DNA from: a virus
Lineage: Duplodnaviria; Caudoviricetes
Virus record (IMG/VR): IMGVR_UViG_3300004213_000011
Location: 1 to 46,914 of that record
Length of the DNA stretch: 46,914 nt
Strand: one strand, 5' to 3'
The translations under genes and the position numbers were made by a program. The first letter of the stretch is position 1. Every line of letters starts with the position of its first letter. Positions 26,727 through 44,803 of this stretch are shown here, piece by piece. The notes under the pieces were generated by a model that was given only the letters and a program-made list of their open reading frames with translations, ran no database searches and was not told where the DNA came from.

Positions 26727-26894
26727 TTATTTTACAGCAATAGCTTTATTAAATTCAAGTATCTTACTATAATTCGCTTTAATTTGCAAACGAAGTTCTT
26801 TCCTTTTTTCTGATGCGTTTTCGGCCCCAAGTAAAGAAGTATATTCTTTTACTAAGCCCTTTGTTTCAGTAGATAAACTTTGATAGCTATGCAT
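26727..26894 (-). CDS. 55-aa protein similar to TMP residues ~172-223, absent from the ORF track
   Basis: MHSYQSLSTETKGLVKEYTSLLGAENASEKRKELRLQIKANYSKILEFNKAIAVK; 15/52 identities to the TMP segment by hand alignment. Confidence 0.7.
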   Translation of the reverse strand: MHSYQSLSTETKGLVKEYTSLLGAENASEKRKELRLQIKANYSKILEFNKAIAVK

Positions 26895-26899
26895 AATGT

Positions 26900-27115
26900 T
26901 TATTTTTTTACGCTGAGATAAGCGGCTGTTAAAATTGTAGATACTAAAAGAACCGCCCCAGCCAAAGTTTTCCGTTTTTGTTTGGCCTTAACTTCTGCAA
27001 TGCTCTTTGATGCTTCGGCAACCGCGTTGCCAAATCTAGCCATTGCATACGTTGCTCTTTCTATTTCTCTGGTGTTGCTGAAATCAAAAATATCATTAAA
27101 AGTTATCTTATCCAT
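26900..27115 (-). CDS. Mini-TMP: copy of the TMP N-terminus with a C-terminal TM helix
   Basis: 15/28 identities to TMP residues 1-28; hydrophobic LAGAVLLVSTILTAAYLSV tail. Confidence 0.8.
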   Translation of the reverse strand: MDKITFNDIFDFSNTREIERATYAMARFGNAVAEASKSIAEVKAKQKRKTLAGAVLLVSTILTAAYLSVKK

Positions 27116-27129
27116 AGTTTTATATTGAG

Positions 27130-27609
27130 TTAATTTATTAAATCCTTTATTGTATCACAAAGCACATAACCGGCCACAGCCCCTACTGGCCCCCAAAACA
27201 AAGGGGAGCCGAATAACCCCGGCCCCCTGTTAGCTGTTTTTTGTAACTTTTCAAATCGCCTTCGTAAATCTTCTTTTGTTTTAGCATCAGCCGAAATTTG
27301 CTCATTTAAGGCTATGTTTATTTTTTGGCCTGTATTAGCTTGATCTAAAAGCAAAGTATTAGTTCTTTCTAATTTAGTTATAGAGGCTTTTTGATCGTTA
27401 ATGGTTTTATCGGCAATATCAAACTTTAGACTTTCTTGTCTGTAGGTTTTTACGTCCATAGCAACGGCGGTATCGTATGGCACTGGCTCACCTTTAAAAA
27501 GTAACGTGTAATCTTTCGGCGGGGCCGCACCCTGGGCGTGTAGGTCAGTAACGGGGCCGCCGAGGCATAAGACGAACAAGAGAATCATATTTGCGATAAT
27601 TGTTTTCAT
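27130..27609 (-). CDS. Exported coiled-coil protein, spanin-like candidate
   Basis: Signal peptide, coiled coil, hydrophobic C-terminus; overlaps the upstream TM coiled-coil gene. Confidence 0.45.
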   Translation of the reverse strand: MKTIIANMILLFVLCLGGPVTDLHAQGAAPPKDYTLLFKGEPVPYDTAVAMDVKTYRQESLKFDIADKTINDQKASITKLERTNTLLLDQANTGQKINIALNEQISADAKTKEDLRRRFEKLQKTANRGPGLFGSPLFWGPVGAVAGYVLCDTIKDLIN

Positions 27610-27904
27610 TTTGTTTTTTTAATTTAAGGTTTAACATATTTAACTCCCCGTTCTCACGGGTTAACGCTTCGACCTTGGCGTAAGTAATCTCCAGTTCGTC
27701 GATATATTTTTTCCGGGTTGCCGTGTTTATACTATCCCGTAATTTACTTAGCTCAAATTCTTTATCTTGCTTTACCAGCGTGGCCTCTTTACTACAGCTA
27801 CGCATAGATAATATAGAACCAAATATAAAAACTATTATCAATAAAGCAGCTAAAATACTTGCCTTATTGCCCTGTTTGAAGAAATTAATTAGCTTGTTCA
27901 TCAT
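27545..27904 (-). CDS. Membrane-anchored coiled-coil protein, i-spanin-like candidate
   Basis: N-terminal TM helix followed by coiled coil. Confidence 0.45.
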   Translation of the reverse strand: MMNKLINFFKQGNKASILAALLIIVFIFGSILSMRSCSKEATLVKQDKEFELSKLRDSINTATRKKYIDELEITYAKVEALTRENGELNMLNLKLKKQNENNYRKYDSLVRLMPRRPRY

Positions 27905-28268
27905 GCTGCAATTTAAAGTTTAATTTAATTTTGAATAAGTCCGTTACAAGGTTTTGGATTTCGTGTACGTAATCCACTTTAACTTTAAATCCATAACTAT
28001 CATCATCCCCCAGGCCACTATGTATAAAAGCAAAGCCATCTTTGTAATTTAAAACACCCTTGTCGGATGTTACGGTTAATGTTCCGTTACTCATTGGGTC
28101 TATTTTATCTGTCCATTCTTTGGTTAAAGGGATACCTCTTATTTCTTTTATTGATATTAATCCAACTTGAAAATCTGTCCATACATAGGAAGGTTGGATA
28201 CCTTCTATTTTGGTATCAGTAATTCCGTAGGTAACTAAATTACCTATTCTTAATTCATTTGCTTTCAT
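27885..28268 (-). CDS. Accessory phage protein (MKANELRIGN type)
   Basis: ELRIGN, IPLT.EW and YVHEIQNL motifs recurrent in Bacteroidota phages. Confidence 0.65.
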   Translation of the reverse strand: MKANELRIGNLVTYGITDTKIEGIQPSYVWTDFQVGLISIKEIRGIPLTKEWTDKIDPMSNGTLTVTSDKGVLNYKDGFAFIHSGLGDDDSYGFKVKVDYVHEIQNLVTDLFKIKLNFKLQHDEQAN

Positions 28269-28639
28269 AGTTGTTCGTTTTTGGGTTTGTGCTTTTCTTT
28301 TAAATATTTAATCCAGTTGTAAAATTCATATACTGTTAAGCTACGGGGGTTACTTACCCCTAAATCTTCTAAAACCACGCATGTCTGCGCAAAAGAGTTT
28401 TCCATTTCTAACATTACGTTTTTACTATCCTCTCCGTTAAAGTTTTTAGGCTTCATTTGGCTTAGTAACCAATCGTTAACTGTTTTTATTTGCTCTTCCA
28501 GTTCGGGGAATTCCGGCTCCGTTATGGTTTTTATTTTAAGCAACGCCCGCCGTACTACCTGGGTATGGAACTCTATTGTTTTATCGTCCTCAATTAATTC
28601 GGGGAAATATAATTCAATTTCACTATTAATTTTTTTTTT
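28265..28639 (-). CDS. Tail assembly chaperone frameshift extension (gpGT-like)
   Basis: The -1 frame is open from the A10 run (INSEIELYFPELIEDD...) into the 92-aa track ORF. Confidence 0.75.
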   Translation of the reverse strand, partial: KKKINSEIELYFPELIEDDKTIEFHTQVVRRALLKIKTITEPEFPELEEQIKTVNDWLLSQMKPKNFNGEDSKNVMLEMENSFAQTCVVLEDLGVSNPRSLTVYEFYNWIKYLKEKHKPKNEQL

Positions 28640-29043
28640 ATTTCCTCCTTTAGTTCGTGGATTTGGTTATAAGTTATGTCTCCGCTCTCTAACTGTTTGG
28701 CTATTGCTAATATATCCGTTTCCGTTACGTCTTGTACCCGCTCTCCGTTTATGCTGTGTACTAAGTGCGCCAGGCATAAACTACCGGTATCAATTCCCTC
28801 CAGCATAAAAAACATTCCCAAACGGAGGTTATGGCGTTCCTGTAAAGCTTCACGTACCCGCCCGGCGGCGTAGAAGGTATCATATTTAGCCAGGCGTACA
28901 TCAATGTCCTCTATTTTGGAACCCATGCCCGCGTCCTGTACTATTGCTATTTGGAAAGCATTAAGTTTCCGTTGTGGCATTTCGTGTATATCGTCGTAGA
29001 AGCTTACGGTTAGGTTATTACGCTGTAGTATTATTTGCCTCAT
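28594..29043 (-). CDS. Tail assembly chaperone (gpG-like)
   Basis: Ends IKKK over an A10 slippery run; upstream of the TMP. Confidence 0.7.
   Translation of the reverse strand: MRQIILQRNNLTVSFYDDIHEMPQRKLNAFQIAIVQDAGMGSKIEDIDVRLAKYDTFYAAGRVREALQERHNLRLGMFFMLEGIDTGSLCLAHLVHSINGERVQDVTETDILAIAKQLESGDITYNQIHELKEEIKKKLIVKLNYISPN
28630..28639 (-). other. Programmed -1 ribosomal frameshift site (A10)
   Basis: ATA AAA AAA AAA TTA; a -1 slip joins the two ORFs. Confidence 0.75.
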
Positions 29044-29275
29044 TTTCTCTGTGTTTTCCTAATGCACCTCCGCAACTTTGTTTTGGGTGTCTTTTATCAT
29101 TTAACTCCCCACTGTAAACAGTTATTACATTGCCACACGTACAACTACAAACATAATAAGTGCCTAATCTTTTACCATTATTTGGAGCTCTTTTTAATAC
29201 GGTTAAATTGCCAAATATTTTACCCCTTAAATCAGTGAAACCAGTTTTTCTAGAGTTTAAAGTTGGTTGTTTCAT
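29018..29275 (-). CDS. Stand-alone Zn-ribbon domain of the type found N-terminal to HNH/AP2 homing endonucleases
   Basis: DLRGKIFGNLTV...YVCSCTCGN...SCG; no nuclease domain follows. Confidence 0.65.
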   Translation of the reverse strand: MKQPTLNSRKTGFTDLRGKIFGNLTVLKRAPNNGKRLGTYYVCSCTCGNVITVYSGELNDKRHPKQSCGGALGKHRENEANNTTA

Positions 29276-29276
29276 G

Positions 29277-29567
29277 TTATCTTAAAATATATAAAGTATA
29301 AGCAGCCGTAGCCGGTGCCGTAAGTAATAAGTAATACCAAATAAACAGGCCAGGGAACAATACAAGCGTAAGCAGGGCCGCTATAACAGCCAACCAGAAA
29401 CAAGCGCACGGGTCGCACCATTCAGGCATCCAGCGGCGCCGGTGTAGGTTGTAGGTGTCTGCTATATTGTACTTATGTGCAATAAGCAATATAAAAGCAT
29501 TTGCCCCGGAGGCAAAAACTAAAAACATTAAGTAGTATTCTACTATTATAATATCATTTAACTCCAT
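29277..29567 (-). CDS. Small membrane protein with CxxCxxFW motif
   Basis: Three TM segments; WCDPCACFW. Confidence 0.65.
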   Translation of the reverse strand: MELNDIIIVEYYLMFLVFASGANAFILLIAHKYNIADTYNLHRRRWMPEWCDPCACFWLAVIAALLTLVLFPGLFIWYYLLLTAPATAAYTLYILR

Positions 29568-29573
29568 TGTTTA

Positions 29574-29711
29574 CTATATTTTTAAATGGTTATAAACAAA
29601 TTGATTGTAAAAAATAGCTACAAATGTGACAGGTTGAAAATTCATTTGGGATTGCATCCAGTATTTTTTATATCTTTTCTTTCCCTTTCGTGGCAACCTG
29701 AATTTATTCAT
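29574..29711 (-). CDS. 45-aa basic protein, absent from the ORF track
   Basis: MNKFRLPRKGKKRYKK...; ATGA coupling to the upstream ORF. Confidence 0.5.
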   Translation of the reverse strand: MNKFRLPRKGKKRYKKYWMQSQMNFQPVTFVAIFYNQFVYNHLKI

Positions 29712-29857
29712 GGTTTTTCTTCTATGTAATCTTCAACTACGTTAACTGCCTTTTCCTCTGGGTATTCCTTTTTTAATACATCTTTTGGGGATGCTATAAA
29801 AATAAGCACTGGTATAATAAATACTAAAAGCGATACTATTACAATAAATGTTATCAT
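29708..29857 (-). CDS. 49-aa single-TM protein, absent from the ORF track
   Basis: MITFIVIVSLLVFIIPVLIFIASPKD... Confidence 0.5.
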   Translation of the reverse strand: MITFIVIVSLLVFIIPVLIFIASPKDVLKKEYPEEKAVNVVEDYIEEKP

Positions 29858-29866
29858 AATTTTAAA

Positions 29867-30442
29867 TTAACAAAATTCATCAAACGTAAGTAATCCTTCT
29901 ATTCTAAACCCGTACTCAGGGTGTTTAAAAGTTTGGTTGTCTACATGGTTTAAACTGTAACCTGCAAATACATCTCCCGGCTCTTCATAAATCTTAGTTA
30001 TCCTAAAAGCGGTTTGGCCTTCTAACTTTCTGTTTACCGCATCCATTAGCTCTTCTTTAAACCGGTGTTGGTAGTTTAATGTTGTATCCCTTGTTTTTAC
30101 CCGGTCTAAGTTAGCCCAGACAATTAAAGATAGCTTTACCCGGTAACTGTTCTTTTTAAATGGTGTCCAATCAACTGCCTCCCTAGACCCGTCCACTTTA
30201 AAAAATGCGTGGGCACTTAAATAATTATTCGGCTCTAATATTAAATAATCCCCTTTTCCCGCATATACCTCCGGGTACTTGTACTCTTTGCCTGTTGCTG
30301 TTTTACGTATGCCGGTTGTTGCCCTACCATACACAACTTCTAACCAAGGCACGGTGCCTAGTAAAGTTTGGAGCTTTTGTATGGCTGCATCTAAGTTTAC
30401 CGGGTTAGGTATTAAAGGTACATTAGGTTTTATATAGTTCAT
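29867..30442 (-). CDS. Putative tail terminator/completion protein
   Basis: 191 aa, structural-module position, C-terminal P.YGFRIEG.L. Confidence 0.5.
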   Translation of the reverse strand: MNYIKPNVPLIPNPVNLDAAIQKLQTLLGTVPWLEVVYGRATTGIRKTATGKEYKYPEVYAGKGDYLILEPNNYLSAHAFFKVDGSREAVDWTPFKKNSYRVKLSLIVWANLDRVKTRDTTLNYQHRFKEELMDAVNRKLEGQTAFRITKIYEEPGDVFAGYSLNHVDNQTFKHPEYGFRIEGLLTFDEFC

Positions 30443-30487
30443 TTATTTTGGAGTTACATTAGGTAGCGATTCCACTATATTTGGTTT

Positions 30488-30724
30488 TTAACTTAGCTTT
30501 ATCTGTGATAGCGAGCTATACTCTTGGCGGTATCCGTTAGTAAAATATACAATGTAAGTTGTCCAATCCCTTGAGGCCGGCCACCAGTCATTTTCACGGG
30601 TGGCCGGTTCTAAATCTTGTGAGTTACTTTTTTCTTCAACCCGTTTAATTTCTAATTCTACTTCGATGCCTACATTTGTTTTTACAAGCATCTTTTTACC
30701 AATCATTAATTCTAATACATTCAT
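30488..30724 (-). CDS. Hypothetical protein
   Basis: 78-aa ORF with DLEPATRENDWWP motif. Confidence 0.6.
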   Translation of the reverse strand: MNVLELMIGKKMLVKTNVGIEVELEIKRVEEKSNSQDLEPATRENDWWPASRDWTTYIVYFTNGYRQEYSSLSQIKLS

Positions 30725-30739
30725 ATTAAGTGGAGCTTT

Positions 30740-31114
30740 TTAGGTTGCCTTCGTTTCATTAGATATTTTATTTAACTGTTCTTCTACAATACGAAGCCCT
30801 TCATTAATAGCAGATATTAAGGCGGTATCATGGTCATCGCAAACCTTATCGAATTGAACGAAATCACTTTCTGCATTATAAAATTCAGTTATTGCCCAAT
30901 ATTTCTTATCTGCTACTGGTAAGGCGTACGCTTCTATTCCTTTACTTCTTAAATAAGCAGTATAACCACCTTGTTGCATATCAAAGGGCAATTCATAAAA
31001 CCGATAATATGCTTCGTAACGAATAAAATCATATTTCTTTTCTAAAAAATTGTGAAAACCTGCTTTTACTTTTTCCTGCGTTACAACAGCAAGATTATCT
31101 TTTGTTTCATTCAT
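30740..31114 (-). CDS. Hypothetical accessory protein (start revised to MNETKD)
   Basis: AAAACTATG context; FY.LPF.MQ.G motif. Confidence 0.6.
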   Translation of the reverse strand: MNETKDNLAVVTQEKVKAGFHNFLEKKYDFIRYEAYYRFYELPFDMQQGGYTAYLRSKGIEAYALPVADKKYWAITEFYNAESDFVQFDKVCDDHDTALISAINEGLRIVEEQLNKISNETKAT

Positions 31115-31124
31115 AGTTTTAGTT

Positions 31125-31907
31125 TTAAGGTTTGCAAGTTTTACAAGGGTACAATCCGGTAGCATCTGTAATAAGTTTACCTGGCTTGTTTTCATAATGG
31201 GTGAGGCGGTGATAGGTTTTAGAAGTGCCTATCCGCTTATAAGTAGTTACTGCTTGGGCCGGGGCTAAGTCTGTGCGCTCTATGCCTATTATTTTGCGTA
31301 CCTCCGGCGCCTGGGCTTTGGTTATACCGTGGCTGAAACCGCTATTATCAAAATCCATATCGCTATATGCAAAAGTAAAAGCTTGCATGAACGCCTCACC
31401 TGCTAAATTATAGTACTCCGTTTCGTAGCTTACCTTTTCCCACCAGAACGCCTCACCCGTAGGTATCACGCCGCCGGGGTGCATAAGGCCGTGTATGGCT
31501 TTGCGCTGTTCATCAGTAAGGGGTAGGAAGTAGTCTACTAAGTGGGCTAGTTCGGCGCTTACTGTTGCTTGTGCTACTTCCGGGTATTTTGTTAAGGCTG
31601 TATCTACATAAATATTGCCGGAACCGGGATAAAATACGCCTAAAATGTATTTCCGTCCGTTTACTTCCCCTTCTATTAATTGGGGGCTATCATCGCCGGG
31701 GGCGTGTGGGCCAGCATGCAACTTAGGCGCACTCTTCCATTTAGCTTTAAAAAAGGTGGGGCTATTTAAATCATCCCAACCAATAGCAAAAATGCCAGAA
31801 GGAGCATTTAACTTATCCCAGGGAAACATTATTTTATCGAGACCGGTTTTTATAATGTTTACTTGCTCGGTAGTACCCCGTAAATCGAATTTGTTTTTAT
31901 AAATCAT
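31125..31907 (-). CDS. Zincin-like protein with C-terminal Ada-type metal-binding remnant
   Basis: AELAH (HExxH variant) and E.F..AF downstream motif; SKTYH...GLYPCKTCKP C-terminus. Confidence 0.45.
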   Translation of the reverse strand: MIYKNKFDLRGTTEQVNIIKTGLDKIMFPWDKLNAPSGIFAIGWDDLNSPTFFKAKWKSAPKLHAGPHAPGDDSPQLIEGEVNGRKYILGVFYPGSGNIYVDTALTKYPEVAQATVSAELAHLVDYFLPLTDEQRKAIHGLMHPGGVIPTGEAFWWEKVSYETEYYNLAGEAFMQAFTFAYSDMDFDNSGFSHGITKAQAPEVRKIIGIERTDLAPAQAVTTYKRIGTSKTYHRLTHYENKPGKLITDATGLYPCKTCKP

Positions 31908-32188
31908 TGGTTTGAAAATATATTGTTGTGGTTGTTTTGCTTACGGTACTTCAACCATTTATCTTTAAATATTTCATAAGGGCAAATAATACAGGTTTCA
32001 CTATAATTCCCCTTCCAGATAATAAATGTTTTGGGCCTGGGGTCGTTTTGCTGTGTTTGCCTTTCTTGGCAATCCTCAATGCTTCTTATATCGCTAAGTA
32101 AAAACATTTTACGCTGTTCATAATACTCCCCCGTATCTTCATTCTTGTAAAAGGCTACATACTCCTGTTCGTTTTTTATTGCCTCCAT
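31904..32188 (-). CDS. Hypothetical protein
   Basis: 94-aa ORF, ATGA-coupled to the next gene. Confidence 0.6.
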   Translation of the reverse strand: MEAIKNEQEYVAFYKNEDTGEYYEQRKMFLLSDIRSIEDCQERQTQQNDPRPKTFIIWKGNYSETCIICPYEIFKDKWLKYRKQNNHNNIFSNQ

Positions 32189-32193
32189 AATAT

Positions 32194-32367
32194 TTATTTA
32201 TAACCTAACCCGGTAAATACATTTATACATTCTTCCAACTGGCTTTCATCCATTAAAGGAATTAAATCCAGGTGTTTGTTATAAAGTTTTGTGCCAATTA
32301 TTTTTTTTGCATAAGCTTTATTTACTTGTTTTCTTAATTTAGTTCTTAACTTTACTATTGCCTCCAC
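32194..32367 (-). CDS. 57-aa hypothetical protein (GTG start), absent from the ORF track
   Basis: VEAIVKLRTKLRKQVNKAYAKK...; fills the intergenic gap. Confidence 0.4.
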   Translation of the reverse strand: MEAIVKLRTKLRKQVNKAYAKKIIGTKLYNKHLDLIPLMDESQLEECINVFTGLGYK

Positions 32368-32804
32368 CCTGCTAAATATTTAAGTACTTGTTCAACTAAA
32401 CTTGGTTTTAAATAATCATGGGCCAGTGTTTCACGTGAAGCATCACTTAACCCTATTAATTCATCTCCGTATTTTGCTTCTAAATCCTGGGCCTTTGCAT
32501 CGGTTGCCTCCATGCTTATACCTTCAGTGTCTACTCTCGCTTCAATACTTTCGTGGTAAGCGCCGGTTGCCTTTAAATCGGGCACCCCTGGCCGGGGGCG
32601 ACTGTTCATAAACTGTTTAGCCTGGGCGTATACCGGGTTCCTATAACCGGGTGTTATCTCGCGGCCTGTTGTATAAGTACCTTGTAATAATTGCTCTGCG
32701 TTCAAGTCTTCGATAACCGGGGTGTATTCCCGTGCCGCTTCCTCTAACATATCCTTTATAGGTATGTTTTGTAAGCGGGCCTTTATCATTTGCAGAGCAT
32801 TCAT
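32355..32804 (-). CDS. Neck/tail completion protein (HK97 gp10-like position)
   Basis: DLN.EQL..G, PDLK.TG.Y..SI and L..KYG...IGL motifs. Confidence 0.65.
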   Translation of the reverse strand: MNALQMIKARLQNIPIKDMLEEAAREYTPVIEDLNAEQLLQGTYTTGREITPGYRNPVYAQAKQFMNSRPRPGVPDLKATGAYHESIEARVDTEGISMEATDAKAQDLEAKYGDELIGLSDASRETLAHDYLKPSLVEQVLKYLAGWRQ

Positions 32805-33307
32805 TAAAAATCTGGTTTAAATATATTGCGGTTTATTTGTGCCTTTTTAAAGTCTTCTATTTCTCTTTGCGCTTGAGCTTCTTGTAACAAATCAAACTGC
32901 CGCTGATTTTCTTGAACTGGGTCAGGTTTTTGAAGGTATTCTTTTTCAAAATCTTTACTGCCACGCACTTTGCCGTAAAGATGTTTGATTTTATTATTTA
33001 CTATATAAGCGGCTTTATTATGTGCTTCTGTATCTAATCTTTCCTCTGTACCGCCTTTTGGAAAATTTGGTATAGGTCGTTGCAAGTACTCATCTTCGTG
33101 CCGCTTTGGATCTCTTAGCTTTGAAGTATAATACACGGCCAGACCCTGGTTTATTCGCTCTGTTCCAATTACACTAGTAGCATTTATACTCCTGTCATCA
33201 TCACAAAGCAGACCCACTAATTTAATATACGGTATACCTGTACGCTGTGCTATCTCTGGTAATAAAGCGGCTAGTTTTGCTTTTTGAAATATTGTTAACA
33301 TTGTCAT
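32804..33307 (-). CDS. Hypothetical protein with two terminase-like EYLQxP repeats
   Basis: KLRDPKRHEDEYLQRPIP and KVRGSKDFEKEYLQKPDP. Confidence 0.6.
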   Translation of the reverse strand: MTMLTIFQKAKLAALLPEIAQRTGIPYIKLVGLLCDDDRSINATSVIGTERINQGLAVYYTSKLRDPKRHEDEYLQRPIPNFPKGGTEERLDTEAHNKAAYIVNNKIKHLYGKVRGSKDFEKEYLQKPDPVQENQRQFDLLQEAQAQREIEDFKKAQINRNIFKPDF

Positions 33308-33314
33308 AGTTTTT

Positions 33315-33608
33315 TTAGGCTACTTCTATTGCCCGTATTGGGGCTTTCCTTAAAACTTTTGATACTAAATCCAGCTCATGCAAATGAGTTATTCTGGCTA
33401 TGAATTGAATATCATCTTTATTGCACTCGCTCCGGTTAAACACTGAAAAGAAAGAATTATTTTTATCAGTTCGGATAATTATACATTTTGATGACTGTTT
33501 ATTTTCTAATTCAAAATGAATAAAATTTCCGAAATTAACCACTCCAGTATTTTCTTTAAAACCTAAGTTAATTAAAATATTATTGGTTAAGACTGTTTTT
33601 GCATCCAT
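33315..33608 (-). CDS. Hypothetical accessory protein
   Basis: LT..IL..LGFK and I.HLHEL motifs, related in style to 27885-28268. Confidence 0.6.
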   Translation of the reverse strand: MDAKTVLTNNILINLGFKENTGVVNFGNFIHFELENKQSSKCIIIRTDKNNSFFSVFNRSECNKDDIQFIARITHLHELDLVSKVLRKAPIRAIEVA

Positions 33609-33617
33609 AGTTTTATA

Positions 33618-33836
33618 TTAATATTTAAGGTCAAAAAAAGCTATAATTTTCTTAAATCCCGGAATGTTATAGCTAATAAAATCATGTCTAAAACAGGTAA
33701 ATATTTTATGCTTGTACATTAAAGATATTTCTTCAAAAATATCGTCCTCTATAGGGAGTATAAATACTGCTCTTTCGCGGTTAAGGTCAGCTAAATAATT
33801 ACCTAACTTGCCAAACATAGATACATCTATATCCAT
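33618..33836 (-). CDS. Hypothetical protein
   Basis: 72-aa AT-rich ORF. Confidence 0.5.
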   Translation of the reverse strand: MDIDVSMFGKLGNYLADLNRERAVFILPIEDDIFEEISLMYKHKIFTCFRHDFISYNIPGFKKIIAFFDLKY

Positions 33837-33846
33837 AGCTTTATTT

Positions 33847-35199: not shown

Positions 35200-35205
35200 A
35201 ACATT

Positions 35206-35403
35206 TTACTTTATTATAAGTATTTTTTTCTGATCTTTAAGCACATCTTTATCAGTATATACTTCAAAATAAGCATTCTCGATTTTAGCAACATCAAAAT
35301 ATGATATTAAAAGATACCCAACCTCACCTTCAACACCCGCATATAAGTCTCCATGTTCGGATTTAACCTTTTCTAGGTTTTCTATTATCTCGCTTATTAA
35401 CAT
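35206..35403 (-). CDS. Hypothetical protein
   Basis: M.ISE.IE.LE....EHGDL motif common in small phage proteins. Confidence 0.6.
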   Translation of the reverse strand: MLISEIIENLEKVKSEHGDLYAGVEGEVGYLLISYFDVAKIENAYFEVYTDKDVLKDQKKILIIK

Positions 35404-35406
35404 AGC

Positions 35407-35739: not shown

Positions 35740-35744
35740 TTCTT

Positions 35745-35771: not shown

Positions 35772-35811
35772 TAAATCGAATAAGTTGCTAATGTTGATAA
35801 GTAAATATAAT

Positions 35812-35837
35812 AAAAAAAGCCGCCTTATCAAAGCGGC
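35812..35837 (-). terminator. Intrinsic terminator after the major capsid gene
   Basis: GCCGC-TTTGATAAG-GCGGC followed by T7. Confidence 0.85.
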
Positions 35838-35868
35838 CCTTTCCTAATAAAACTATGAATGCAAAAAG

Positions 35869-36915: not shown

Positions 36916-36971
36916 TTTTTTAGGTTTTAAAAGTTAAAAATAAATTTAAGATTCCGGCTTCCCTCGCCGTT

Positions 36972-36985
36972 ATTGCAAATATAAT
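36972..36985 (-). promoter_or_regulatory. Capsid promoter, -7 element TATATTTG
   Basis: TATATTTGCA about 60 nt upstream of the capsid ATG. Confidence 0.6.
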
Positions 36986-37008
36986 ATAAATTCTAATATA
37001 AAAAACTT

Positions 37009-37932
37009 TTAACGTAGGCTTAACCCTTCGCTATGTTTTTTATAAAAGTCGTCGTAATCTTTCTCTCCTGATTTAAGGCCGTATTCTTTCATGTAAGTTG
37101 TTAACTGAACACGGGTTTTTATGTTTGCGCCAGGGGCCGGTATCGGGTCGCCCGCCTTCCATTCTGCGCGGCCTCCGGTGCCACCACTGCCTGCCCCTTG
37201 CTGTTGGTGTCCTCCTTTTTCTTCGGTGAGGTCTTTAAAAAAATCGGTTACAATTTCTTTCGGAGTTAAGGCCAAAGCGGTTTTAGGATTAATTTGCAAA
37301 GTACCTGCCGCATCTTCAAAAACGGTTTTACCATCCTGCGCTTTTTTAGGCGTATAGGTTTTGTAGAACTTATTTAACCTAGCCTCCAGTACATCATCAG
37401 CAATATTGGTATATTCTTTTTTGATGTTAGCCCGGATAGTACCCAAAGCAGATTCTACTTGTCCTTCGACTTTGGCAGTGAAAATTGCCTGTTCTTTTTG
37501 GCTAAGCTCTTGGGTGTGGGTTTCTTGGGTGGTTTTGATAAGATCTTCAAGTTGTTTTATTCTTTTGGCCGCGTCTTTGTCTCCAAAACCTTCTTCCTGC
37601 TTTTTTTTCAGGTCGTCTAATTCTGTTTGCATGGTAGTAATACCTTGCTTATAAGTATTCATAGCCCGTACAAAGTATTCCGATGCTTTTTCCGTAGGAG
37701 ATGCTTTTTTAATACCGGTTAACTCTTCTACGGATTTTTCAACATTAGAATAAGCTGTAGGTTCCCGTTTGGTGAACTCCATTTCAACAAAATTCTTTTG
37801 GTACGTTTCGTCTTGTTTTGGAGTGCGTACTACAAACCCTTTATCAATTAAGGGTTTTAATAATTCATGCTCGGCGGCATCCCCGGCCAAAACTGGTTCT
37901 AATGCTGCTAATTCTTCTGGTGTAATTGGCAT
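37009..37932 (-). CDS. Capsid scaffolding protein
   Basis: Charged coiled coil, Gly-rich linker near the C-terminus, directly upstream of the capsid gene. Confidence 0.75.
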   Translation of the reverse strand: MPITPEELAALEPVLAGDAAEHELLKPLIDKGFVVRTPKQDETYQKNFVEMEFTKREPTAYSNVEKSVEELTGIKKASPTEKASEYFVRAMNTYKQGITTMQTELDDLKKKQEEGFGDKDAAKRIKQLEDLIKTTQETHTQELSQKEQAIFTAKVEGQVESALGTIRANIKKEYTNIADDVLEARLNKFYKTYTPKKAQDGKTVFEDAAGTLQINPKTALALTPKEIVTDFFKDLTEEKGGHQQQGAGSGGTGGRAEWKAGDPIPAPGANIKTRVQLTTYMKEYGLKSGEKDYDDFYKKHSEGLSLR

Positions 37933-37964
37933 AATCTTCCCTCGATTACGAGTTTTTAAATTGT

Positions 37965-38258
37965 TTATTTTAAAGGTTGTGTAACAAAAATTGTAATGTT
38001 TTCAGAGCGTTCTATTATTACCGGTGGGCTACCTTGCATAAACCCGGTGTTTACCTTATCCATTGCGCTCTGGTAATCGTTCTTTTTAAAACCCCTATGC
38101 AACTCTAAAGTATTAAATAAACTAACTAAAGCTCTTTTATCTATATCTTTCTTGTCTAGCACGGCTTTAATAGCATCAATTAACCCCTGCCCCTGGGTTT
38201 GCTCTTTTTCAAACGCTTCTATTGACTTTGGGCCTATATTATTAATAACGTTATCCAT
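37965..38258 (-). CDS. Hypothetical protein
   Basis: 97-aa ORF. Confidence 0.6.
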   Translation of the reverse strand: MDNVINNIGPKSIEAFEKEQTQGQGLIDAIKAVLDKKDIDKRALVSLFNTLELHRGFKKNDYQSAMDKVNTGFMQGSPPVIIERSENITIFVTQPLK

Positions 38259-38346: not shown

Positions 38347-39156
38347 TTATTGTTGAGGTTGAATCTTTTCTATTTCCTCGCTCAATTTTTTGGAGCTAAA
38401 GTCCTCTGGTGCTGGATGGCCTACAACTTTTTCATATTGTTCACGGAGTTTTTCTTTTGGCGTTTGCCCTTTAGCAACACCAGCAGGAGGGGTAACATTG
38501 TTAAGGTCTGCCCCGGTTACGTTTAACTGGTTGGGTTCATCGGTTCCGGTTTCAGTATTAGCCGTGCCGGAAACTTCTTCTGGTGTGCCGTTGGTTTGTT
38601 GGCCTGCATTTACACCTGAAACAGCCGTCATGCCCACAACCGGGCCGGTTCTTTCTTTGCTCGGCTCGTGGAAAACATTGTCTTTTGTTTGCACGTGGCG
38701 CCCTTCTACCATTAGGGAGCCGCGAGTTTGAGCCAGAGTTGAGGCAGCACTAGTGGCAATACTTCCGGTTGGGCCTGGGTCTAATACTTTGTTACCCAAT
38801 AGCGGGCCGGTATTTAATAGCTGTTTTGCACCGCCGCCTTCTAAATCATATCCCTCTGGAGAACTTATAACTTCTACCTCGTAAGCAGATAAAGAGCCGT
38901 TTTTACGGGCTTGTTCCCAATCTTGGGTAGTAAAGCTTTGCGGATAAGCTTTGTAAAGCGGGGCGGCGGTATTAGTATCATATCCCTTCATTCGCATATT
39001 GACGTGGATTAGATGCCGTTCGTGTTCCGGCACTACTGCCCCCGGATTGTTCTCCCCGGACGTTGCCATTACCGTTCCCATTTGCTGGTTCTGGAGTTTG
39101 TTTAGCTCTTCGGATGTCAAGTTGTGCGCTTGTTTTTTCTCGGTCTGTGTTGACAT
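38347..39156 (-). CDS. Head-module protein with low-complexity linker and C-terminal helix-extension-helix motif
   Basis: LREQYEKVVGHPAPEDFSSKKLSEEI C-terminus; lies between portal and scaffold. Confidence 0.6.
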   Translation of the reverse strand: MSTQTEKKQAHNLTSEELNKLQNQQMGTVMATSGENNPGAVVPEHERHLIHVNMRMKGYDTNTAAPLYKAYPQSFTTQDWEQARKNGSLSAYEVEVISSPEGYDLEGGGAKQLLNTGPLLGNKVLDPGPTGSIATSAASTLAQTRGSLMVEGRHVQTKDNVFHEPSKERTGPVVGMTAVSGVNAGQQTNGTPEEVSGTANTETGTDEPNQLNVTGADLNNVTPPAGVAKGQTPKEKLREQYEKVVGHPAPEDFSSKKLSEEIEKIQPQQ

Positions 39157-40900
39157 AACTTAATAAAGTTTTAGTGATTAAATCTATTTTAGTGTTAAAT
39201 TCCATTTTTATGCCAAACCGCAAAACATCTAACTGTTCAGCTTCAAAACGTTTAATATACGTATCAAAGTTTAATTTAAGTACGTAAAGTTCATGATTTA
39301 TTGTGCCAGGCATTGCCGCCTCTATTTCGGATAATTCTTTAAGGCTTTGATCTGGGTACGGCTCCAAGTGCGCTAGTATGTTTAACCGTTGCACCATTTC
39401 AGGATTATTTTTATATTTAGTGTGGTAAAGCGTTTTTAAAGATTCGGCTAAATGATAAGCAGGCATTCCGGCCTCTTTATCTTTTTGGTAACGTTCACTT
39501 AGTTCTTGTTCATCTATTAAATAGAATTCGTCCCCCATTATTACGGTGCTATCCACAAAACTAGCTCCGTAACGTAAAATAGCAACTGTTTCAAGACCCC
39601 ATTTTCTTGCACGTTCCACACATCCTTTTATCAATAAAAAAACGTTTTCTTTGCTAGTCAGGCCACTTTCTATCTGCTTTTCGTTTTTGGCCTGGTCGTT
39701 TACCGGCTCGCCTCCTTTGCCTACTACGCTAACAAAGAGCTTATCATATTTTTGCTCAAGGCGTTCCTGTGCATTTTTTAGGGCTGCAATATCTATTGTT
39801 ATTAACCCGGCTGGCTCCCTTAAATCAGCATCCGTATTGTCAACCGGGGCTTCTATTTGCTTAACACTACCAGGGCCGATATAATTATTTTTAGAACATT
39901 TAGGGCAAGGTTTTTTGTCTAACAATGCAGCCTTTTGGCCGGTTACTGATTCACTGTAGCCGGCAATATATCCTTTTTCGCATTTTGCGCCCTGGCCATC
40001 AGTATAATCACAGGCTTCATCATTCATGTACTCCCAATAAATAGGGTACGATCCGAAACTTTCAAAATATTCAGTACTTAAATCCCAAAAGAAAAGGTCG
40101 TCAAGTTTTCCAAGTTTGGCAGTTAACGGCCCTTTACGCTGTAGCAATTCTGGGCGACTCTGGGGTATATCCCAAAATACGCGGGCCGGGCAATAACCTA
40201 AACCAGATATTTTTTCGCCTGTTTCGGCGTAAAAAGAGTGTCGGGTTTCCACTGGAACGACTAACCGCCAATCATCCTCGCGGCGGTTACGAGTGTATTT
40301 TCTGTAATACGTATCATCAAATACGTATCTTACTAAATCGCCTTCATTAAAAATAACATAATCTATTTTACCTTCATAAGTTAATTCTACATCCCAAAGC
40401 AATTCAGGCTCCAGAAAATACATATACGGTTCCGGCAAATCGTTTTTTTGTTGGGCGGGCAGGTCTATGATTAATAGATTATTGATAGCGGTTTTGATAA
40501 CCTCAAACCCGGCGTTTTTAAAGAAGTTTTCTTCTTTTAAAACATCCGTTCTGTAAATATTAAAATCTTCATCGTAAGCATCATTAAGAAACTCAAATCT
40601 AGTAAATCCGTTTTCCCCCTCTAGTGCACGGCTCAACTCATTAAAAATACTTTCTGTTAAGTCTACAGTAGGGAGGGGAAACGTGATTAGTTTTGTTACT
40701 TGGTCATACTTTTCTTTAGGTAAAAAACCAGCAATCCACTTTAGCAAATCAGTGTAAGCCGGGCTTACCTCCGTTGCATCTAAAGCGGGTTCTACGTGCA
40801 ATCTAATCCTCTGATGCTGCTTGATGCACCTCTGGATCATTGCCTGATTTTTTGGTTTTTCGAACAGTTGTTGTATCTGCTCCCTTGACAAGTTTGCCAT
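38978..40900 (-). CDS. Portal protein (start revised to MANLSR)
   Basis: 640 aa, helical, between terminase and scaffold; HGLGYCP-like SGLGYCPA motif; Cys4 insertion. Confidence 0.75.
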   Translation of the reverse strand: MANLSREQIQQLFEKPKNQAMIQRCIKQHQRIRLHVEPALDATEVSPAYTDLLKWIAGFLPKEKYDQVTKLITFPLPTVDLTESIFNELSRALEGENGFTRFEFLNDAYDEDFNIYRTDVLKEENFFKNAGFEVIKTAINNLLIIDLPAQQKNDLPEPYMYFLEPELLWDVELTYEGKIDYVIFNEGDLVRYVFDDTYYRKYTRNRREDDWRLVVPVETRHSFYAETGEKISGLGYCPARVFWDIPQSRPELLQRKGPLTAKLGKLDDLFFWDLSTEYFESFGSYPIYWEYMNDEACDYTDGQGAKCEKGYIAGYSESVTGQKAALLDKKPCPKCSKNNYIGPGSVKQIEAPVDNTDADLREPAGLITIDIAALKNAQERLEQKYDKLFVSVVGKGGEPVNDQAKNEKQIESGLTSKENVFLLIKGCVERARKWGLETVAILRYGASFVDSTVIMGDEFYLIDEQELSERYQKDKEAGMPAYHLAESLKTLYHTKYKNNPEMVQRLNILAHLEPYPDQSLKELSEIEAAMPGTINHELYVLKLNFDTYIKRFEAEQLDVLRFGIKMEFNTKIDLITKTLLSYVNTDREKTSAQLDIRRAKQTPEPANGNGNGNVRGEQSGGSSAGTRTASNPRQYANEGI

Positions 40901-41066
40901 TAACAAATTGGTATTTAGATTTTGCGGGTAAACTCCAGTTTTTCTGGCCTCTGTCTTTTTCAAATTGCAAGAGGGCTTCGGCATGCTCCAGGGAAAATTC
41001 CCTTTTATTTGCTTCGTCCCCTCTTACAATAAGATCAACTGCTGGCCCGGTTTTCCGGTCTGCCAT
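40803..41066 (-). CDS. Small structural-module protein
   Basis: EFSLEHAEALL...W.LP..S.YQF motif; codon context fits the operon. Confidence 0.6.
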   Translation of the reverse strand: MADRKTGPAVDLIVRGDEANKREFSLEHAEALLQFEKDRGQKNWSLPAKSKYQFVNGKLVKGADTTTVRKTKKSGNDPEVHQAASED

Positions 41067-41758: not shown

Positions 41759-43249
41759 TTAATTGCGATTAATTATTTTTTTCTTATCTTTCCCGAAATA
41801 AAATTCAAGAAGCTGCATTACAAATATATCTACTTCGTCATCATGCGTACTGTTCGGGAATGCTGAACATTGATTTTTAAACGTTGTCGTCCAGCCGGAG
41901 CCATCTTCAATAAGTACTACCCGGCCTACCTGGATAATATCCGTTATTGCGTGGGCGCGTACTATTTTATCTTTATCGTCCATCCTTACACCCCGTACCC
42001 GTGGAAACTTGTATTGCTCGACGTTTACCGTTGTAGCCTTTTTTATAGATTGCACTACACTAAGGCCCGAGGCCTTTGGTTCAATTCTAATGTAACTTTT
42101 TAGGCCGTACCCGTTGGCCTGGGCAAATTCATCTATATATTCGCAAAGTGCTGGCAGTTCTTTTCGTACAGATTGCACCCGGCGTATATAGGTTATGTTA
42201 TCAACTAAGCAAGCCGACAATATTGCGGAGGGATCGTTTTGCGTTTTCTCTGTATAAGCTGTATCCACTTTGAACTGCCATATTACCTCCCGGTTTTTTG
42301 TTCTATCTAAAAACTCTGGCCAGGTGATTAAACCGAATTTTTCAGTTTTTATAATATTACCCTCTAATGGGCGCGGGTTTTGTTGGTATAAGCTGTTATA
42401 AGTCCGGGGGCTGCTTTCCTTTTGTTCTAATATTGTTTCTTTGCTGTGTTGCTCTTCCCATAGTGCTTCCCCTATTTGCCTGGGGTCGTTAGGGTTATTG
42501 TTATTTTCTTTTATTGCAGGTAAGCTTATAACCGTCCATTTCCTGGGCAAACCTTTTAACGCACGGGCATCGTCCTCTTTTAACAAGCGGCCCGCTAAAT
42601 CGTCTTCGTGCCAACGGGTTTGGAGGAGTAATTGTTGAGAGCCGTTATGGAGTCGGGTTTTGAATACGTCCGTATACCAAGCCCAGACATTCCGGCGTAT
42701 AATTTCGCTTTCTGCCTCTATCCTATCCTTAAAGGGGTCATCAATTATCCCTAAGTCTACAGACGTTCCAGTAAGCGGCCCCCGAACGTAAGCGGCTTTG
42801 AAAAAACCCCGGTGCCCGACAATTTCAAATACTTCACTATTCCGTAAAGTTGCCCCCTTTGCATCAGAGGCGACGTTTTTCCCGTTTAGTTTTGTATCCG
42901 GGAAAACAGAAGCGTAAGTACTAGTGTCTATTATTCTTTGTGCATCGCGGTTGAATCCGAAACTTAAATCCCCGCTATAACTACAAACAGCGATTCTGCA
43001 ATTGGGGTCTAAGCCTAGCTTGTAGGCCGGGAACTGGCGGCTACTTAATTCACTTTTCCCGTGCTGTGGAGGCACGAATATCATTAAATTGGTTATCTCC
43101 CTACGTGCAAACTTATCCAGTACCTCGCATATATATCTATGGTGCCAGTTAACACGGTAATCCGGTTTGTTGTGCAAAACAAAACGCAAAAATTTACGCT
43201 TAGCTAAGTTGTTTTGTACAGAAGAAAGGCGGGGTGCTTCTAAAACCAT
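41759..43249 (-). CDS. terL: Terminase large subunit (start revised to MVLEAP)
   Basis: Walker A PPQHGKS, Walker B GIIDDP, QTRWHEDDLAG, LYQQNP, VDTA, IEPKASG, FPN..HDDEVD. Confidence 0.95.
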   Translation of the reverse strand: MVLEAPRLSSVQNNLAKRKFLRFVLHNKPDYRVNWHHRYICEVLDKFARREITNLMIFVPPQHGKSELSSRQFPAYKLGLDPNCRIAVCSYSGDLSFGFNRDAQRIIDTSTYASVFPDTKLNGKNVASDAKGATLRNSEVFEIVGHRGFFKAAYVRGPLTGTSVDLGIIDDPFKDRIEAESEIIRRNVWAWYTDVFKTRLHNGSQQLLLQTRWHEDDLAGRLLKEDDARALKGLPRKWTVISLPAIKENNNNPNDPRQIGEALWEEQHSKETILEQKESSPRTYNSLYQQNPRPLEGNIIKTEKFGLITWPEFLDRTKNREVIWQFKVDTAYTEKTQNDPSAILSACLVDNITYIRRVQSVRKELPALCEYIDEFAQANGYGLKSYIRIEPKASGLSVVQSIKKATTVNVEQYKFPRVRGVRMDDKDKIVRAHAITDIIQVGRVVLIEDGSGWTTTFKNQCSAFPNSTHDDEVDIFVMQLLEFYFGKDKKKIINRN

Positions 43250-43253
43250 GCTG

Positions 43254-43263
43254 CTAATATACG
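43254..43263 (-). promoter_or_regulatory. Variant promoter core CGTATATTAG just upstream of terL
   Basis: Identical to 41737-41746; 4 nt from the ATG. Confidence 0.5.
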
Positions 43264-43274
43264 AAATAAAACGC

Positions 43275-43301
43275 AAAAAGGCCACCCGGTTAAAGGTGGC
43301 C
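43275..43301 (-). terminator. Intrinsic terminator closing the ncRNA unit
   Basis: GGCCACC-TTTAACCG-GGTGGCC followed by T5. Confidence 0.85.
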
Positions 43302-43652
43302 TTACTCATTTGAGAAACCGGGCAACTCATTTATATATCTTATATCACCGGTTTTAACACCAATTCGGGGTGTCGCCTGTCTTTTTAGCTTTAGTAGCTA
43401 TCTCTAAAACTAAAAAGCTTTTTCAGCGGGGAGACAGCTTTGCAGCTTACACATTTAACTTAACGTTAGCTATTCGTCAAATTAAATGCTTCTGTTTTCA
43501 CGCCTCCCCTATCGGGGTTTGTTGTGGAGTGTTTGGATCGAACCCAGGCGCCTTTTACACAGCCCACCCCATTTAACTTGTAAGTCCTATAATTAACGAC
43601 CTTTAGGTATTAGTAGCACGGAACGGTCATGCGGCCTACTTACAAGCTTGTT
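43275..43652 (-). ncRNA. Putative ~375-nt structured non-coding RNA
   Basis: No credible minus-strand ORF; own promoter and terminator; 9-, 15- and 14-bp stems with G-U pairs valid only on the minus strand; T-loop-like GGTTCGAT. Confidence 0.7.
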
Positions 43653-43656
43653 TTAA

Positions 43657-43670: not shown

Positions 43671-43697
43671 TAAAATAAAAAGTATACTTGTTTTGGT

Positions 43698-43724
43698 AAA
43701 AAAGCCACCTGGTTAAAAGTGGCC
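43698..43724 (-). terminator. Intrinsic terminator upstream of the ncRNA promoter
   Basis: GGCCACTT-TTAACC-AGGTGGCT followed by a T tract. Confidence 0.8.
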
Positions 43725-43749
43725 CTGGAGTATGCGAAACGCCAGTATT

Positions 43750-44037
43750 TTAATTTTTACTAAAGCTGTTTTTAACATTTTCTTCTCGTATCTTTTCAGA
43801 AGCAAAAGTAAGTAATTCTTCTTTCAAGCCATCCAGCGCTATCATACCCAAAAAATCTGGTAACCCTGGAATAAAGATAGTCATTGTTAAAAACATTTCA
43901 GTAGCTCCGCTATAAAAACAAGTTTTAATTTCTTCTTGCTTATCAGCTGGCATGTTTTTATAATCTTCATAATTTGCATCAATGAATTTTTGGAACATTG
44001 ATTGCATAAATAAAACTTCTTTGTTGTTGTCGTCCAT
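43750..44037 (-). CDS. Hypothetical phage protein
   Basis: Q.EE....FYSGA motif. Confidence 0.6.
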   Translation of the reverse strand: MDDNNKEVLFMQSMFQKFIDANYEDYKNMPADKQEEIKTCFYSGATEMFLTMTIFIPGLPDFLGMIALDGLKEELLTFASEKIREENVKNSFSKN

Positions 44038-44053
44038 AGTTTTAGGTTTTAAG

Positions 44054-44482
44054 TTAGCTTTTCATTTTTTCTACAAAGGCCCGAATATTAGCAGCTGCTT
44101 GTTCTTTTGTCGCGTTTTCATGTAAGCGATTGCCGCCGAATAATTTAGTGTCTTGTTTTCTTGGAAAAAATAAGTGATCGACCATCAGAGGATCTAATCC
44201 GAAAAACTCTACTAAAGACATATAAGGATTATAATCGTCTAAAGTGGGGTTTTTTAATACGGGGCCAGATAAATAATTAAACTCCCATAAATCTGGCCAT
44301 ATTATCGGACATTCTCCGGCTGCGCATCCATTAGTGCCGCATTCATTTGGGGGATATGAAACGATGTTGTCTAAAACATTTGTATTATAAGTGCTAAAAT
44401 CAAATACTTTATGGCCAAGTACTCCTATTTCTAAATGCTGGGCAAGCTGCAAAAGCTTATCAAATTGTATTTCTGTATTCAT
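44054..44482 (-). CDS. Hypothetical phage protein with CGTxxCxAG motif
   Basis: CGTNGCAAG, FFGL and LF.P motifs. Confidence 0.65.
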   Translation of the reverse strand: MNTEIQFDKLLQLAQHLEIGVLGHKVFDFSTYNTNVLDNIVSYPPNECGTNGCAAGECPIIWPDLWEFNYLSGPVLKNPTLDDYNPYMSLVEFFGLDPLMVDHLFFPRKQDTKLFGGNRLHENATKEQAAANIRAFVEKMKS

Positions 44483-44484
44483 AG

Positions 44485-44700
44485 TTATATAGATTCAATA
44501 AATTCAATAAATTCTTTTATTTGGTCTAAAGTGAAATAGTAATTATTATACCCCACAGTATCACAAAAATACTCGCCTTCGTTTAAGTGTTCAACTAAAA
44601 AAGGTCTCCCGTTTATTATCTTAACAAACACCCCGGAATCGGTAGCTTGGAAGCCTTGGGATACTAAGTACTTTACTATTTCTTGATGTTGCTTTGTCAT
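44485..44700 (-). CDS. Hypothetical protein
   Basis: 71-aa ORF. Confidence 0.55.
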   Translation of the reverse strand: MTKQHQEIVKYLVSQGFQATDSGVFVKIINGRPFLVEHLNEGEYFCDTVGYNNYYFTLDQIKEFIEFIESI

Positions 44701-44704
44701 GGCC

Positions 44705-44803
44705 TTAAAAGTTATTAGAAGCGTAAATGGCTATACCTGTATTTACTGCAAAAATAGCGGCGGTAATAGCCCAGTATTTTAATTGTTGTAGTTGTGGCTT
44801 CAT
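44705..44803 (-). CDS. 32-aa hydrophobic peptide, first gene after the promoter, absent from the ORF track
   Basis: MKPQLQQLKYWAITAAIFAVNTGIAIYASNNF. Confidence 0.55.
   Translation of the reverse strand: MKPQLQQLKYWAITAAIFAVNTGIAIYASNNF

What the first reader, a model, noticed from the sequence alone, without database searches (positions are those of the whole stretch)
26727..44803. Candidate new system: self-mimic miniproteins copied from the phage's own morphogenesis proteins
Seen: separate small intact ORFs resemble TMP 1-28 (26900-27115, strong), TMP ~172-223 (26727-26894, good), TMP ~1209-1225 (44705-44803, short), the TerL LYQQNP motif twice plus a TMP PxPxxxKG motif (32804-33307, moderate), and a portal segment (37965-38258, weak). 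Established: portal, terminase and tail proteins are triggers or targets of anti-phage defences and exclusion proteins. Inference: the phage keeps fragments of its own conserved proteins as decoys that soak up sensors or assembly blockers, or as dominant-negative inhibitors of related phages.
Basis: inference. Interest (0 to 1): 0.8.

Follow-up and report, generated by a model that had tools for sequence, protein, structure and literature searches.

The report
Phage miniproteins copying tape-measure motifs
Two small genes just upstream of this phage's tail tape-measure gene carry diverged copies of two conserved pieces of that protein, and four related phages carry such copies too, likely as decoys that would soak up host proteins that recognise or block the tape measure; the proposed terminase and portal copies did not hold up.

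Summary
Partly confirmed. Two of the five claimed mimics are real. ORF71 (26900-27115) copies tape-measure (TMP) residues 1-28 and adds a hydrophobic C-terminal helix; ORF55 (26727-26894) copies TMP 173-223. Profiles built only from TMPs rank them top among about 9,000-10,000 ORFs. ORF71 has a syntenic ortholog in G001, conserved mainly at residues 1-12 (8/12 vs 6/34), and a model docks these residues on the predicted tail completion protein (0.63 vs best control 0.06). Three further relatives carry copies of a third segment, TMP 385-414, as a 51-aa ORF or as tags on unrelated proteins: 5 of 21 relatives in all. The portal and TMP 1209-1225 matches are at chance level; ORF167 is borderline. 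Copies follow the clade, not each genome's own allele. Best reading: late-expressed decoys against TMP-binding defences (0.4); rivals are a tail-completion-protein sink and recombination debris (G007 holds a broken TMP fragment). Nothing is shown experimentally. This scan noted TMP-end copies before on other DNA; my literature searches found no paper on them.

The parts
26900..27115 (-). ORF71: TMP 1-28-like head, helical linker, C-terminal hydrophobic helix and KK end
   Evidence: ortholog in G001 (L003 18363-18869, C-terminal 79 aa)
27080..27115 (-). ORF71 residues 1-12, the conserved core; predicted to contact the tail completion protein
   Evidence: 8/12 identical to the G001 ortholog vs 6/34 downstream, Fisher p 0.003; interface residues 1-10, 12
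26909..26965 (-). ORF71 residues 51-69, predicted membrane helix absent from TMP
   Evidence: Kyte-Doolittle 19-mer mean 2.03; G001 ortholog 1.79
26727..26894 (-). ORF55: copy of TMP 173-223 from the invariant SY to just before the NFRNVGNY motif; GC 0.30, GC3 0.20
   Evidence: no counterpart in G001
22524..26720 (-). Tape measure protein, 1398 aa
   Evidence: PF10145 at 373-553; PHROG TMP families
26637..26720 (-). TMP residues 1-28, the segment copied in ORF71
26052..26204 (-). TMP residues 173-223, the segment copied in ORF55; holds family-invariant S173 Y174 L177 K217 D220
25479..25568 (-). TMP residues 385-414 (inside PF10145); not copied in the window but copied in G007, G009, G011
32355..32804 (-). 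Predicted tail completion protein (149 aa); modelled partner of the TMP/ORF71 N-terminus
   Evidence: phrog_6195 'tail protein'; position and model; no solved relative by sequence, so the name is inferred
32804..33307 (-). ORF167: accessory gene with an internal EYLQxPxP repeat; borderline likeness to TerL and TMP C-terminal motifs; same slot (just before the tail completion gene) as the 51-aa TMP copy of G011
37965..38258 (-). ORF97: orphan accessory ORF; portal likeness not supported
44705..44803 (-). 32-aa hydrophobic peptide, first gene behind a repeated Bacteroidota-type promoter, ortholog in G001; TMP likeness not supported
28265..29043 (-). Likely tail assembly chaperone pair (two halves of phrog_8914, conserved KKK at the junction), so ORF71/ORF55 are not the chaperones
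   Evidence: frameshift reading inferred from the known G/GT arrangement

Best explanation
ORF71 and ORF55 are small genes carrying diverged copies of two conserved tape-measure segments, and they likely act as late-expressed decoys that would occupy host or prophage proteins that bind the tape measure, without triggering or being blocked by them. Shown: the homology to TMP 1-28 and 173-223; the position in the late operon directly before TMP; an ortholog of ORF71 kept over saturated synonymous divergence; independent copies of TMP 385-414 in three relatives, lineage-specific and on unrelated carriers. Predicted: ORF71 residues 1-12 form the surface with which the TMP N-terminus docks on the tail completion protein, and its C-terminal helix anchors it in the membrane. 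Inferred: a short piece presents the recognised epitope but not the whole extended surface needed for activation or for tail building, so it titrates a sensor (Avs18-like) or an assembly blocker (Tab-like) while full TMP goes into tails.
For: Homology beyond chance with TMP-only profiles and reversed-ORF controls: PSSM scores 36.1 and 27.5 vs next 3.7 (TMP 1-28), 14.5 vs 8.9 (195-223), 28.6, 21.1, 19.8 vs 5.0 (385-414), 0 reversed ORFs as high, n 8,816. Selection on the ORF71 family: pS 0.84 between the two orthologs, conservation concentrated at residues 1-12 (p 0.003), shared T5 found in neither TMP, shared hydrophobic tail. Patchy, repeated origin typical of conflict genes: 5 of 21 long-TMP relatives, three segments, five layouts; homologs of the G009 head gene (7 others) and of the G007 TerS lack the tag. 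Only TMP, among 13 other structural families scanned, gave such copies. Model of 3 x ORF71(1-45) on the predicted tail completion protein: 0.63 vs best control 0.06 (mark reached by 116 of 157 solved and 2 of 215 mismatched pairs; runs agree in at least 90% of contacts; partner pLDDT at least 79). TMP is a published trigger or target: Avs18 binds a central conserved ~130-residue helical segment (PMC12803255, passages), Tab blocks assembly through TMP and its antidote is encoded in the late operon (PMC10884400, passages).
Against: No cognate sensor or blocker was identified; the host is unknown. No expression data. The model pass shows likeness to a solved complex (80alpha TCP-TMP, PMC11661146) and 16 of 18 rows of the partner alignment were TMP N-termini, so it does not show ORF71 binds, and it points to a phage partner, not a host one. 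Copies do not track their own allele. pN below pS against TMP does not discriminate: the broken TMP fragment of G007 shows the same pattern (pS 0.74, pN 0.31). ORF55 has no ortholog anywhere searched, and ORF71-ORF55-TMP are collinear with TMP, as a decayed 5' remnant would be. Whether TMP 385-414 lies in the Avs18 segment could not be checked (supplement unreadable); Tab sensitivity maps to the TMP C-terminus, not to the segments copied here.
Confidence: 0.4

Rival explanations
1. Assembly modulator: ORF71 binds the phage's own tail completion protein and holds surplus or premature copies at the membrane until tails are finished; ORF55 and the 385-414 copies similarly tune TMP-chaperone or TMP-TMP contacts.
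For: The conserved residues are the predicted contact residues on the tail completion protein; in 80alpha one TCP binds three TMP N-termini (PMC11661146, passages); co-transcription with TMP.
Against: 16 of 21 relatives with the same tail module show no such copy; three different segments on five different carriers is hard to fit to one assembly step.
Confidence: 0.22
2. Recombination debris: remnants of an older or foreign TMP 5' end left when the TMP gene was replaced, partly still open by chance and fused to neighbours.
For: Collinear order ORF71 (1-28), ORF55 (173-223), TMP; ORF55 matches foreign TMPs better than its own (71 vs 54, rank 13 of 121); G007 holds a real broken TMP fragment (266-358, internal stop); ORF55 is an orphan.
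Against: ORF71 and its ortholog persist over saturated pS with motif-focused conservation and a shared non-TMP helix; ORF55 scores 25.6 bits vs at least 85.5 for 29 real TMP segments yet is open, whereas neutral decay leaves only 6-25% of simulated copies stop-free, indels not counted; the same 30-residue segment recurs with like borders in three genomes far from the TMP gene. Plausible for ORF55 alone (about 0.3), unlikely for ORF71 (about 0.1).
Confidence: 0.2
3. Interference with related phages: the pieces poison tail assembly or DNA entry of co-infecting relatives (dominant-negative or HK97 gp15-like exclusion).
For: Membrane helix on ORF71; copies fit clade relatives as well as or better than self.
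Against: No Bacteroidota-type promoter upstream, so expression is likely late; no tyrosine integrase in G000 (88% complete) or G001 (99%); a poison made beside its own TMP should hit self.
Confidence: 0.12

Closest known systems
DSAD1 (SPbeta anti-DSR2)
   Same: Phage protein that competes with a tail-protein trigger (tail tube protein) for the sensor's binding cavity (PMC11263360, passages).
   Different: The passages read do not describe DSAD1 as a fragment of its trigger; here the pieces are sequence paralogs of TMP, and no sensor is known.
Anti-Tab of JBD26 and AtiEcA of phi80
   Same: Small late-operon genes that protect tail assembly from a blocker; Tab targets TMP (PMC10884400, PMC11364771; passages).
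   Different: They pair with a tab/tai gene in the same prophage; no such partner was recognised here (PADLOC 0 of 30 ORFs, a library that may predate them); they were not described as TMP copies in the passages read.
TMP N-terminus docked on tail completion protein (80alpha gp56 1-37 on gp51)
   Same: ORF71 copies the equivalent end; the model uses three copies on one partner (PMC11661146).
   Different: ORF71 is a separate 71-aa product with a hydrophobic tail and cannot serve as a tape.
Avs18 trigger segment of TMP
   Same: Conserved central helical TMP region; the 385-414 copies lie in the conserved PF10145 domain (PMC12803255).
   Different: That ~130-residue segment activates; the copies are ~25-32 residues. 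Overlap not verifiable.
HK97 gp15 exclusion moron
   Same: Small membrane protein encoded among tail genes (recalled; only reference titles seen).
   Different: gp15 is a moron with its own expression signals and is not a TMP paralog (recalled).

Membership tests
TMP-segment paralog | Homology to a TMP segment beyond chance | tested here: met
   ORF71, ORF55:
TMP-segment paralog | Maintained by protein-level selection | tested here: inconclusive
   Met for ORF71 family; not discriminated for ORF55 (orphan; 6-25% neutral survival)
TMP-segment paralog | Tracks its own genome's TMP allele | tested here: not met
   Own allele best in 1 of 7; ranks 1-13 of 121; clade-level only
Terminase/portal mimic | Homology to TerL or portal beyond chance | tested here: not met
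   ORF167 borderline on one post hoc PSSM
DSAD1-like competitive anti-defence | Binds the sensor and blocks activation | not testable with these tools
   sensor and host unknown
Anti-Tab / Ati counter-defence | Late-operon location | tested here: met
Anti-Tab / Ati counter-defence | Cognate blocker in the same genome | tested here: inconclusive
   PADLOC 0 of 30; record 88% complete; tab/tai sequences not searched directly
Anti-Tab / Ati counter-defence | Sequence homology to Atab or Ati | not tested
   no Pfam/PHROG family for ORF71 or ORF55; direct comparison not made
Tail assembly chaperone G/GT | Frameshift-linked pair upstream of TMP | tested here: not met
   that role fits 28265-29043, not ORF71/ORF55
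Superinfection-exclusion moron | Own promoter for lysogen or early expression | tested here: not met
   no -33/-7 motif in 26500-28600; sigma-70 scan at shuffle level

The most novel reading that the evidence does not exclude
Bacteroidota siphoviruses repeatedly cut the conserved epitopes out of their own tape measure and express them as free peptides, membrane-anchored baits or tags on other late proteins, as a self-derived class of anti-defence decoys; ORF167 may extend this to a composite terminase-plus-TMP bait. The copied segments would then map which TMP epitopes host sensors read.
Probability: 0.35. Interest if true: 0.85.

Novelty: new variant of a known kind. Interest (0 to 1): 0.62.

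Why it matters
TMP is a newly recognised defence trigger (Avs18) and blocker target (Tab), and phages could not mutate away from Tab in the published attempts. A counter-measure built from the trigger itself would be a cheap, predictable route to anti-defence, findable by self-alignment in any genome, and each copy would name an epitope to test. Even if the role is in assembly, it marks three functional sites on a poorly understood protein.

Tried and rejected
Stand-alone relatives of ORF71: only itself in the 5.8-billion search and itself plus one HEAT-repeat chance hit in the 1.84-billion search; tblastn of ORF71, ORF55, ORF167 against annotated phages gave nothing under E 2. Short proteins with the 385-414 profile: none at E 0.5 of 174 candidates; copies score 18-28 bits, too low for that database size, so no inference. 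ESM Atlas: no usable hit for ORF167, best 0.84 unnamed for ORF55. AlphaFold2 of ORF71: one long helix, pLDDT 68, pTM 0.29, uninformative. Sequencing runs: no RNA holder listed. Pairwise self-BLAST alone is weak: 12 forward vs 5 reversed hits at E 1e-3 of 9,167 ORFs (the overlap filters dropped the G001 copy, which and the profiles found). 14-mer PSSM sweep: window ORFs 9 forward vs 4 reversed for TMP, 0 vs 1 for TerL. G008 166-aa hit (E 0.002) rejected as coiled-coil-like, motif absent. G035 59-aa and G003 76-aa candidates left unresolved. pN/pS against TMP rejected as proof of selection because G007 debris shows the same. TerL profile had only 2 sequences and was replaced by 52. Literature: searches found no paper on TMP-fragment paralogs or self-derived decoys (listings only; open-access library, so subscription papers are missed).
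Full report
Setting. The window is a 46.9-kb virus record, 88% complete, with all genes on the minus strand. Its capsid protein matches Bacteroides B40-8, Croceibacter P2559S and Flavobacterium FpV-type phages at about 33%, so it is a Bacteroidota siphovirus. PHROG/Pfam identify TerL (41759-43330), portal (38978-40984), capsid (35869-36915), a split phrog_8914 pair that fits the tail chaperones (28265-29043) and TMP (22524-26720). AT-rich orphan ORFs are interspersed between the structural genes.

Observation. All five ORFs exist. ORF71 matches TMP 1-28 at 15/28 (E 9e-5, top non-self pair of 165 ORFs). ORF55 matches TMP 173-223; 0 of 400 shuffles reach either score. Profiles built only from TMPs found ORF71 and its G001 counterpart as the only hits for TMP 1-65 among 10,367 ORFs (E 1.3e-7, 4.6e-8) and ORF55 as the only included hit for 165-235 (E 8e-5). 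The 32-aa ORF and ORF97 fail family-level tests, and the G001 ortholog of the 32-aa ORF lacks the matching residues. ORF167 is borderline: chance by whole-protein score and TerL profile, rank 1 and rank 4 of 8,816 on two post hoc PSSMs with 2 and 1 reversed ORFs as high, rank 139 on the core TerL motif; the pattern P[ILV]Px[FY]x[KE]G occurs 23 times in 915,269 residues, 22 in TMPs and once in ORF167, but the pattern was written with ORF167 in view. I put a real mimic there at about 0.25.

Relatives. G001 (TMP 65% identical) has, 9 bases before its TMP, a 168-aa ORF whose last 79 residues are a TMP 1-28 copy, a helix and a hydrophobic tail. Between ORF71 and this ortholog pS is 0.84; residues 1-12 are 8/12 identical against 6/34 for 13-46 (p 0.003), while the two TMPs are 8/12 and 20/34. 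I then examined 63 sets: 33 whole or partial records or prophage regions (21 with long TMPs of this family, 12 with shorter Flavobacterium-phage-like TMPs) and 30 single loci; of the 36 handles, G021 and G028 were left out and G023, G026 entered only as loci. Window profiles gave 8 forward against 1 reversed hit at E below 0.01 among 9,101 ORFs. A third segment, TMP 385-414, is copied in G007 (C-terminal tag on the small terminase), G009 (extension of a small head gene) and G011 (a 51-aa ORF directly before the tail completion gene, in Hymenobacter sediminis); a whole-record search gave E 2e-8, 1e-6 and 0.04 (the last for a 5.5-Mb genome), plus one unexamined weak match in G003. Homologs of the two carriers lack the tag. 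So 5 of 21 long-TMP relatives carry a copy; 1 of 12 in the second group (G022, 104 aa, TMP 1-28, E 8e-4) is a moderate case; none of the 30 single loci gave a clear one. Thirteen other structural families gave only truncated true homologs or background.

Against a simple story. Own-allele tracking fails: own TMP ranks 2 (ORF71), 2 (G001), 13 (ORF55), 1, 4, 6 and 2 of 121. G007 also carries a broken TMP 266-358 piece with pS 0.74 and pN 0.31, showing that TMP debris exists and imitates the selection signature. ORF55 has no ortholog; its openness at 25.6 bits (real segments 85.5 or more, n 29) is only moderately unlikely under neutral decay (6-25% stop-free).

What the copied end does. In 80alpha three TMP N-termini (1-37) dock on one tail completion protein (PMC11661146, passages); I took this lead from earlier scan notes. 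A model of three ORF71(1-45) with the window's 149-aa gene 32355-32804 scored 0.63 against a best control of 0.06 (mark reached by 116 of 157 solved and 2 of 215 mismatched pairs; contacts agree at 90% or more; partner pLDDT 79 or more), with residues 1-10 and 12 at the interface. The job was unlike the calibration, used my alignments (16 of 18 partner rows were TMPs), and a like complex is solved: it shows likeness, not binding. ORF71's tail is hydrophobic enough to span a membrane (2.03).

Expression context. ORF71 starts 14 bases after the preceding gene, ORF55 5 bases after ORF71, TMP 6 bases after ORF55. The repeated promoter-like motif (core at 7 places; TTTG...TAnnTTTG, Bacteroidota consensus recalled) lies elsewhere. 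Both ORFs have A-rich leaders with A at -3 (significance recalled). Late co-expression with TMP is inferred. No tyrosine integrase was found in 0 of 5 records searched.

Mechanism. Short, patchy, repeatedly invented copies of conserved epitopes of one protein, on arbitrary carriers, fit conflict better than core assembly. TMP is bound by Avs18 (PMC12803255, passages; supplement not readable, which leaves open whether 385-414 is in its segment), targeted by Tab (PMC10884400, passages) and associated with SNIPE (review PMC13434031, passages). Competitive inhibition of a tail-protein sensor is known from DSAD1 (PMC11263360, passages), late-operon antidotes from anti-Tab and Ati (PMC11364771, passages). 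I therefore favour decoys (0.4) over a tail-completion sink (0.22), debris (0.2) and exclusion (0.12). Every functional step is inferred.

Novelty. Seven searches (listings, plus passages of review PMC13728456) found no paper on TMP-fragment paralogs. Earlier notes of this scan report TMP N- and C-terminal copies in other genomes; they are unchecked and not support, and none shares sequence with this locus. New here are three segments within one clade, the ortholog pair, the membrane tail and the tags. It would work like DSAD1 or anti-Tab but is a member of neither: a new variant of a known kind, interest 0.62.

Noticed in passing
L061 1198-2385, L033 1669-2856, L044 379-1566, L023 1169-2353: In Flavobacterium-phage-like records, residues ~22-85 of a ~395-aa probable major capsid protein resemble the same genome's TMP N-terminus (z 6.7-10.9 vs shuffles); the group profile did not list them. 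Shared docking or protease motif, or helical convergence.
   Followed up: partly
L085 14833-14988 (-), G011: 51-aa ORF, GC 0.46 among 0.57-0.59 neighbours, ending in a TMP 393-414 copy and starting with a weak TMP-N-like MADKINFED (9.9 bits); in a cultured Hymenobacter, so the most testable case.
   Followed up: partly
L015 5386-6063 (G007); L022 803-1123 (G009): TMP 385-414 copies appended to a small terminase and to a small head gene; homologs lack the tag.
   Followed up: yes
L154 10049-10522 (-), G007: Broken TMP fragment (residues 266-358, internal stop, two frames) away from the TMP gene.
   Followed up: partly
L070 5094-5408 (G022): 104-aa AT-rich ORF after the tail completion gene begins with a TMP 1-28-like stretch; its G029 homolog lacks that start.
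   Followed up: partly
window 14, 7553, 8428, 9978, 35767, 43666, 44837 (minus strand): Seven copies of a ~30-nt promoter-like repeat in front of accessory gene clusters, one (35767) inside the structural module.
   Followed up: partly
window 27130-27904: Two overlapping ORFs with N-terminal hydrophobic segments (spanin-like, unverified) sit between the chaperones and TMP, far from the endolysin (13040-13651); conserved in G001.
   Followed up: no
window 27885-37965: One to three AT-rich orphan ORFs fill nearly every gap between structural genes, and differ from those in the same slots of G001.
   Followed up: no
window 10125-13037: 970-aa protein with no Pfam or PHROG match and a low-complexity Pro/Lys/Glu region; only its ends match the G001 counterpart.
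   Followed up: no
L003 18363-18629: The G001 copy is fused behind an 89-aa unrelated domain with no family match.
   Followed up: no
G004 (L143): Two full TMP genes within 14 kb in one provirus record.
   Followed up: no
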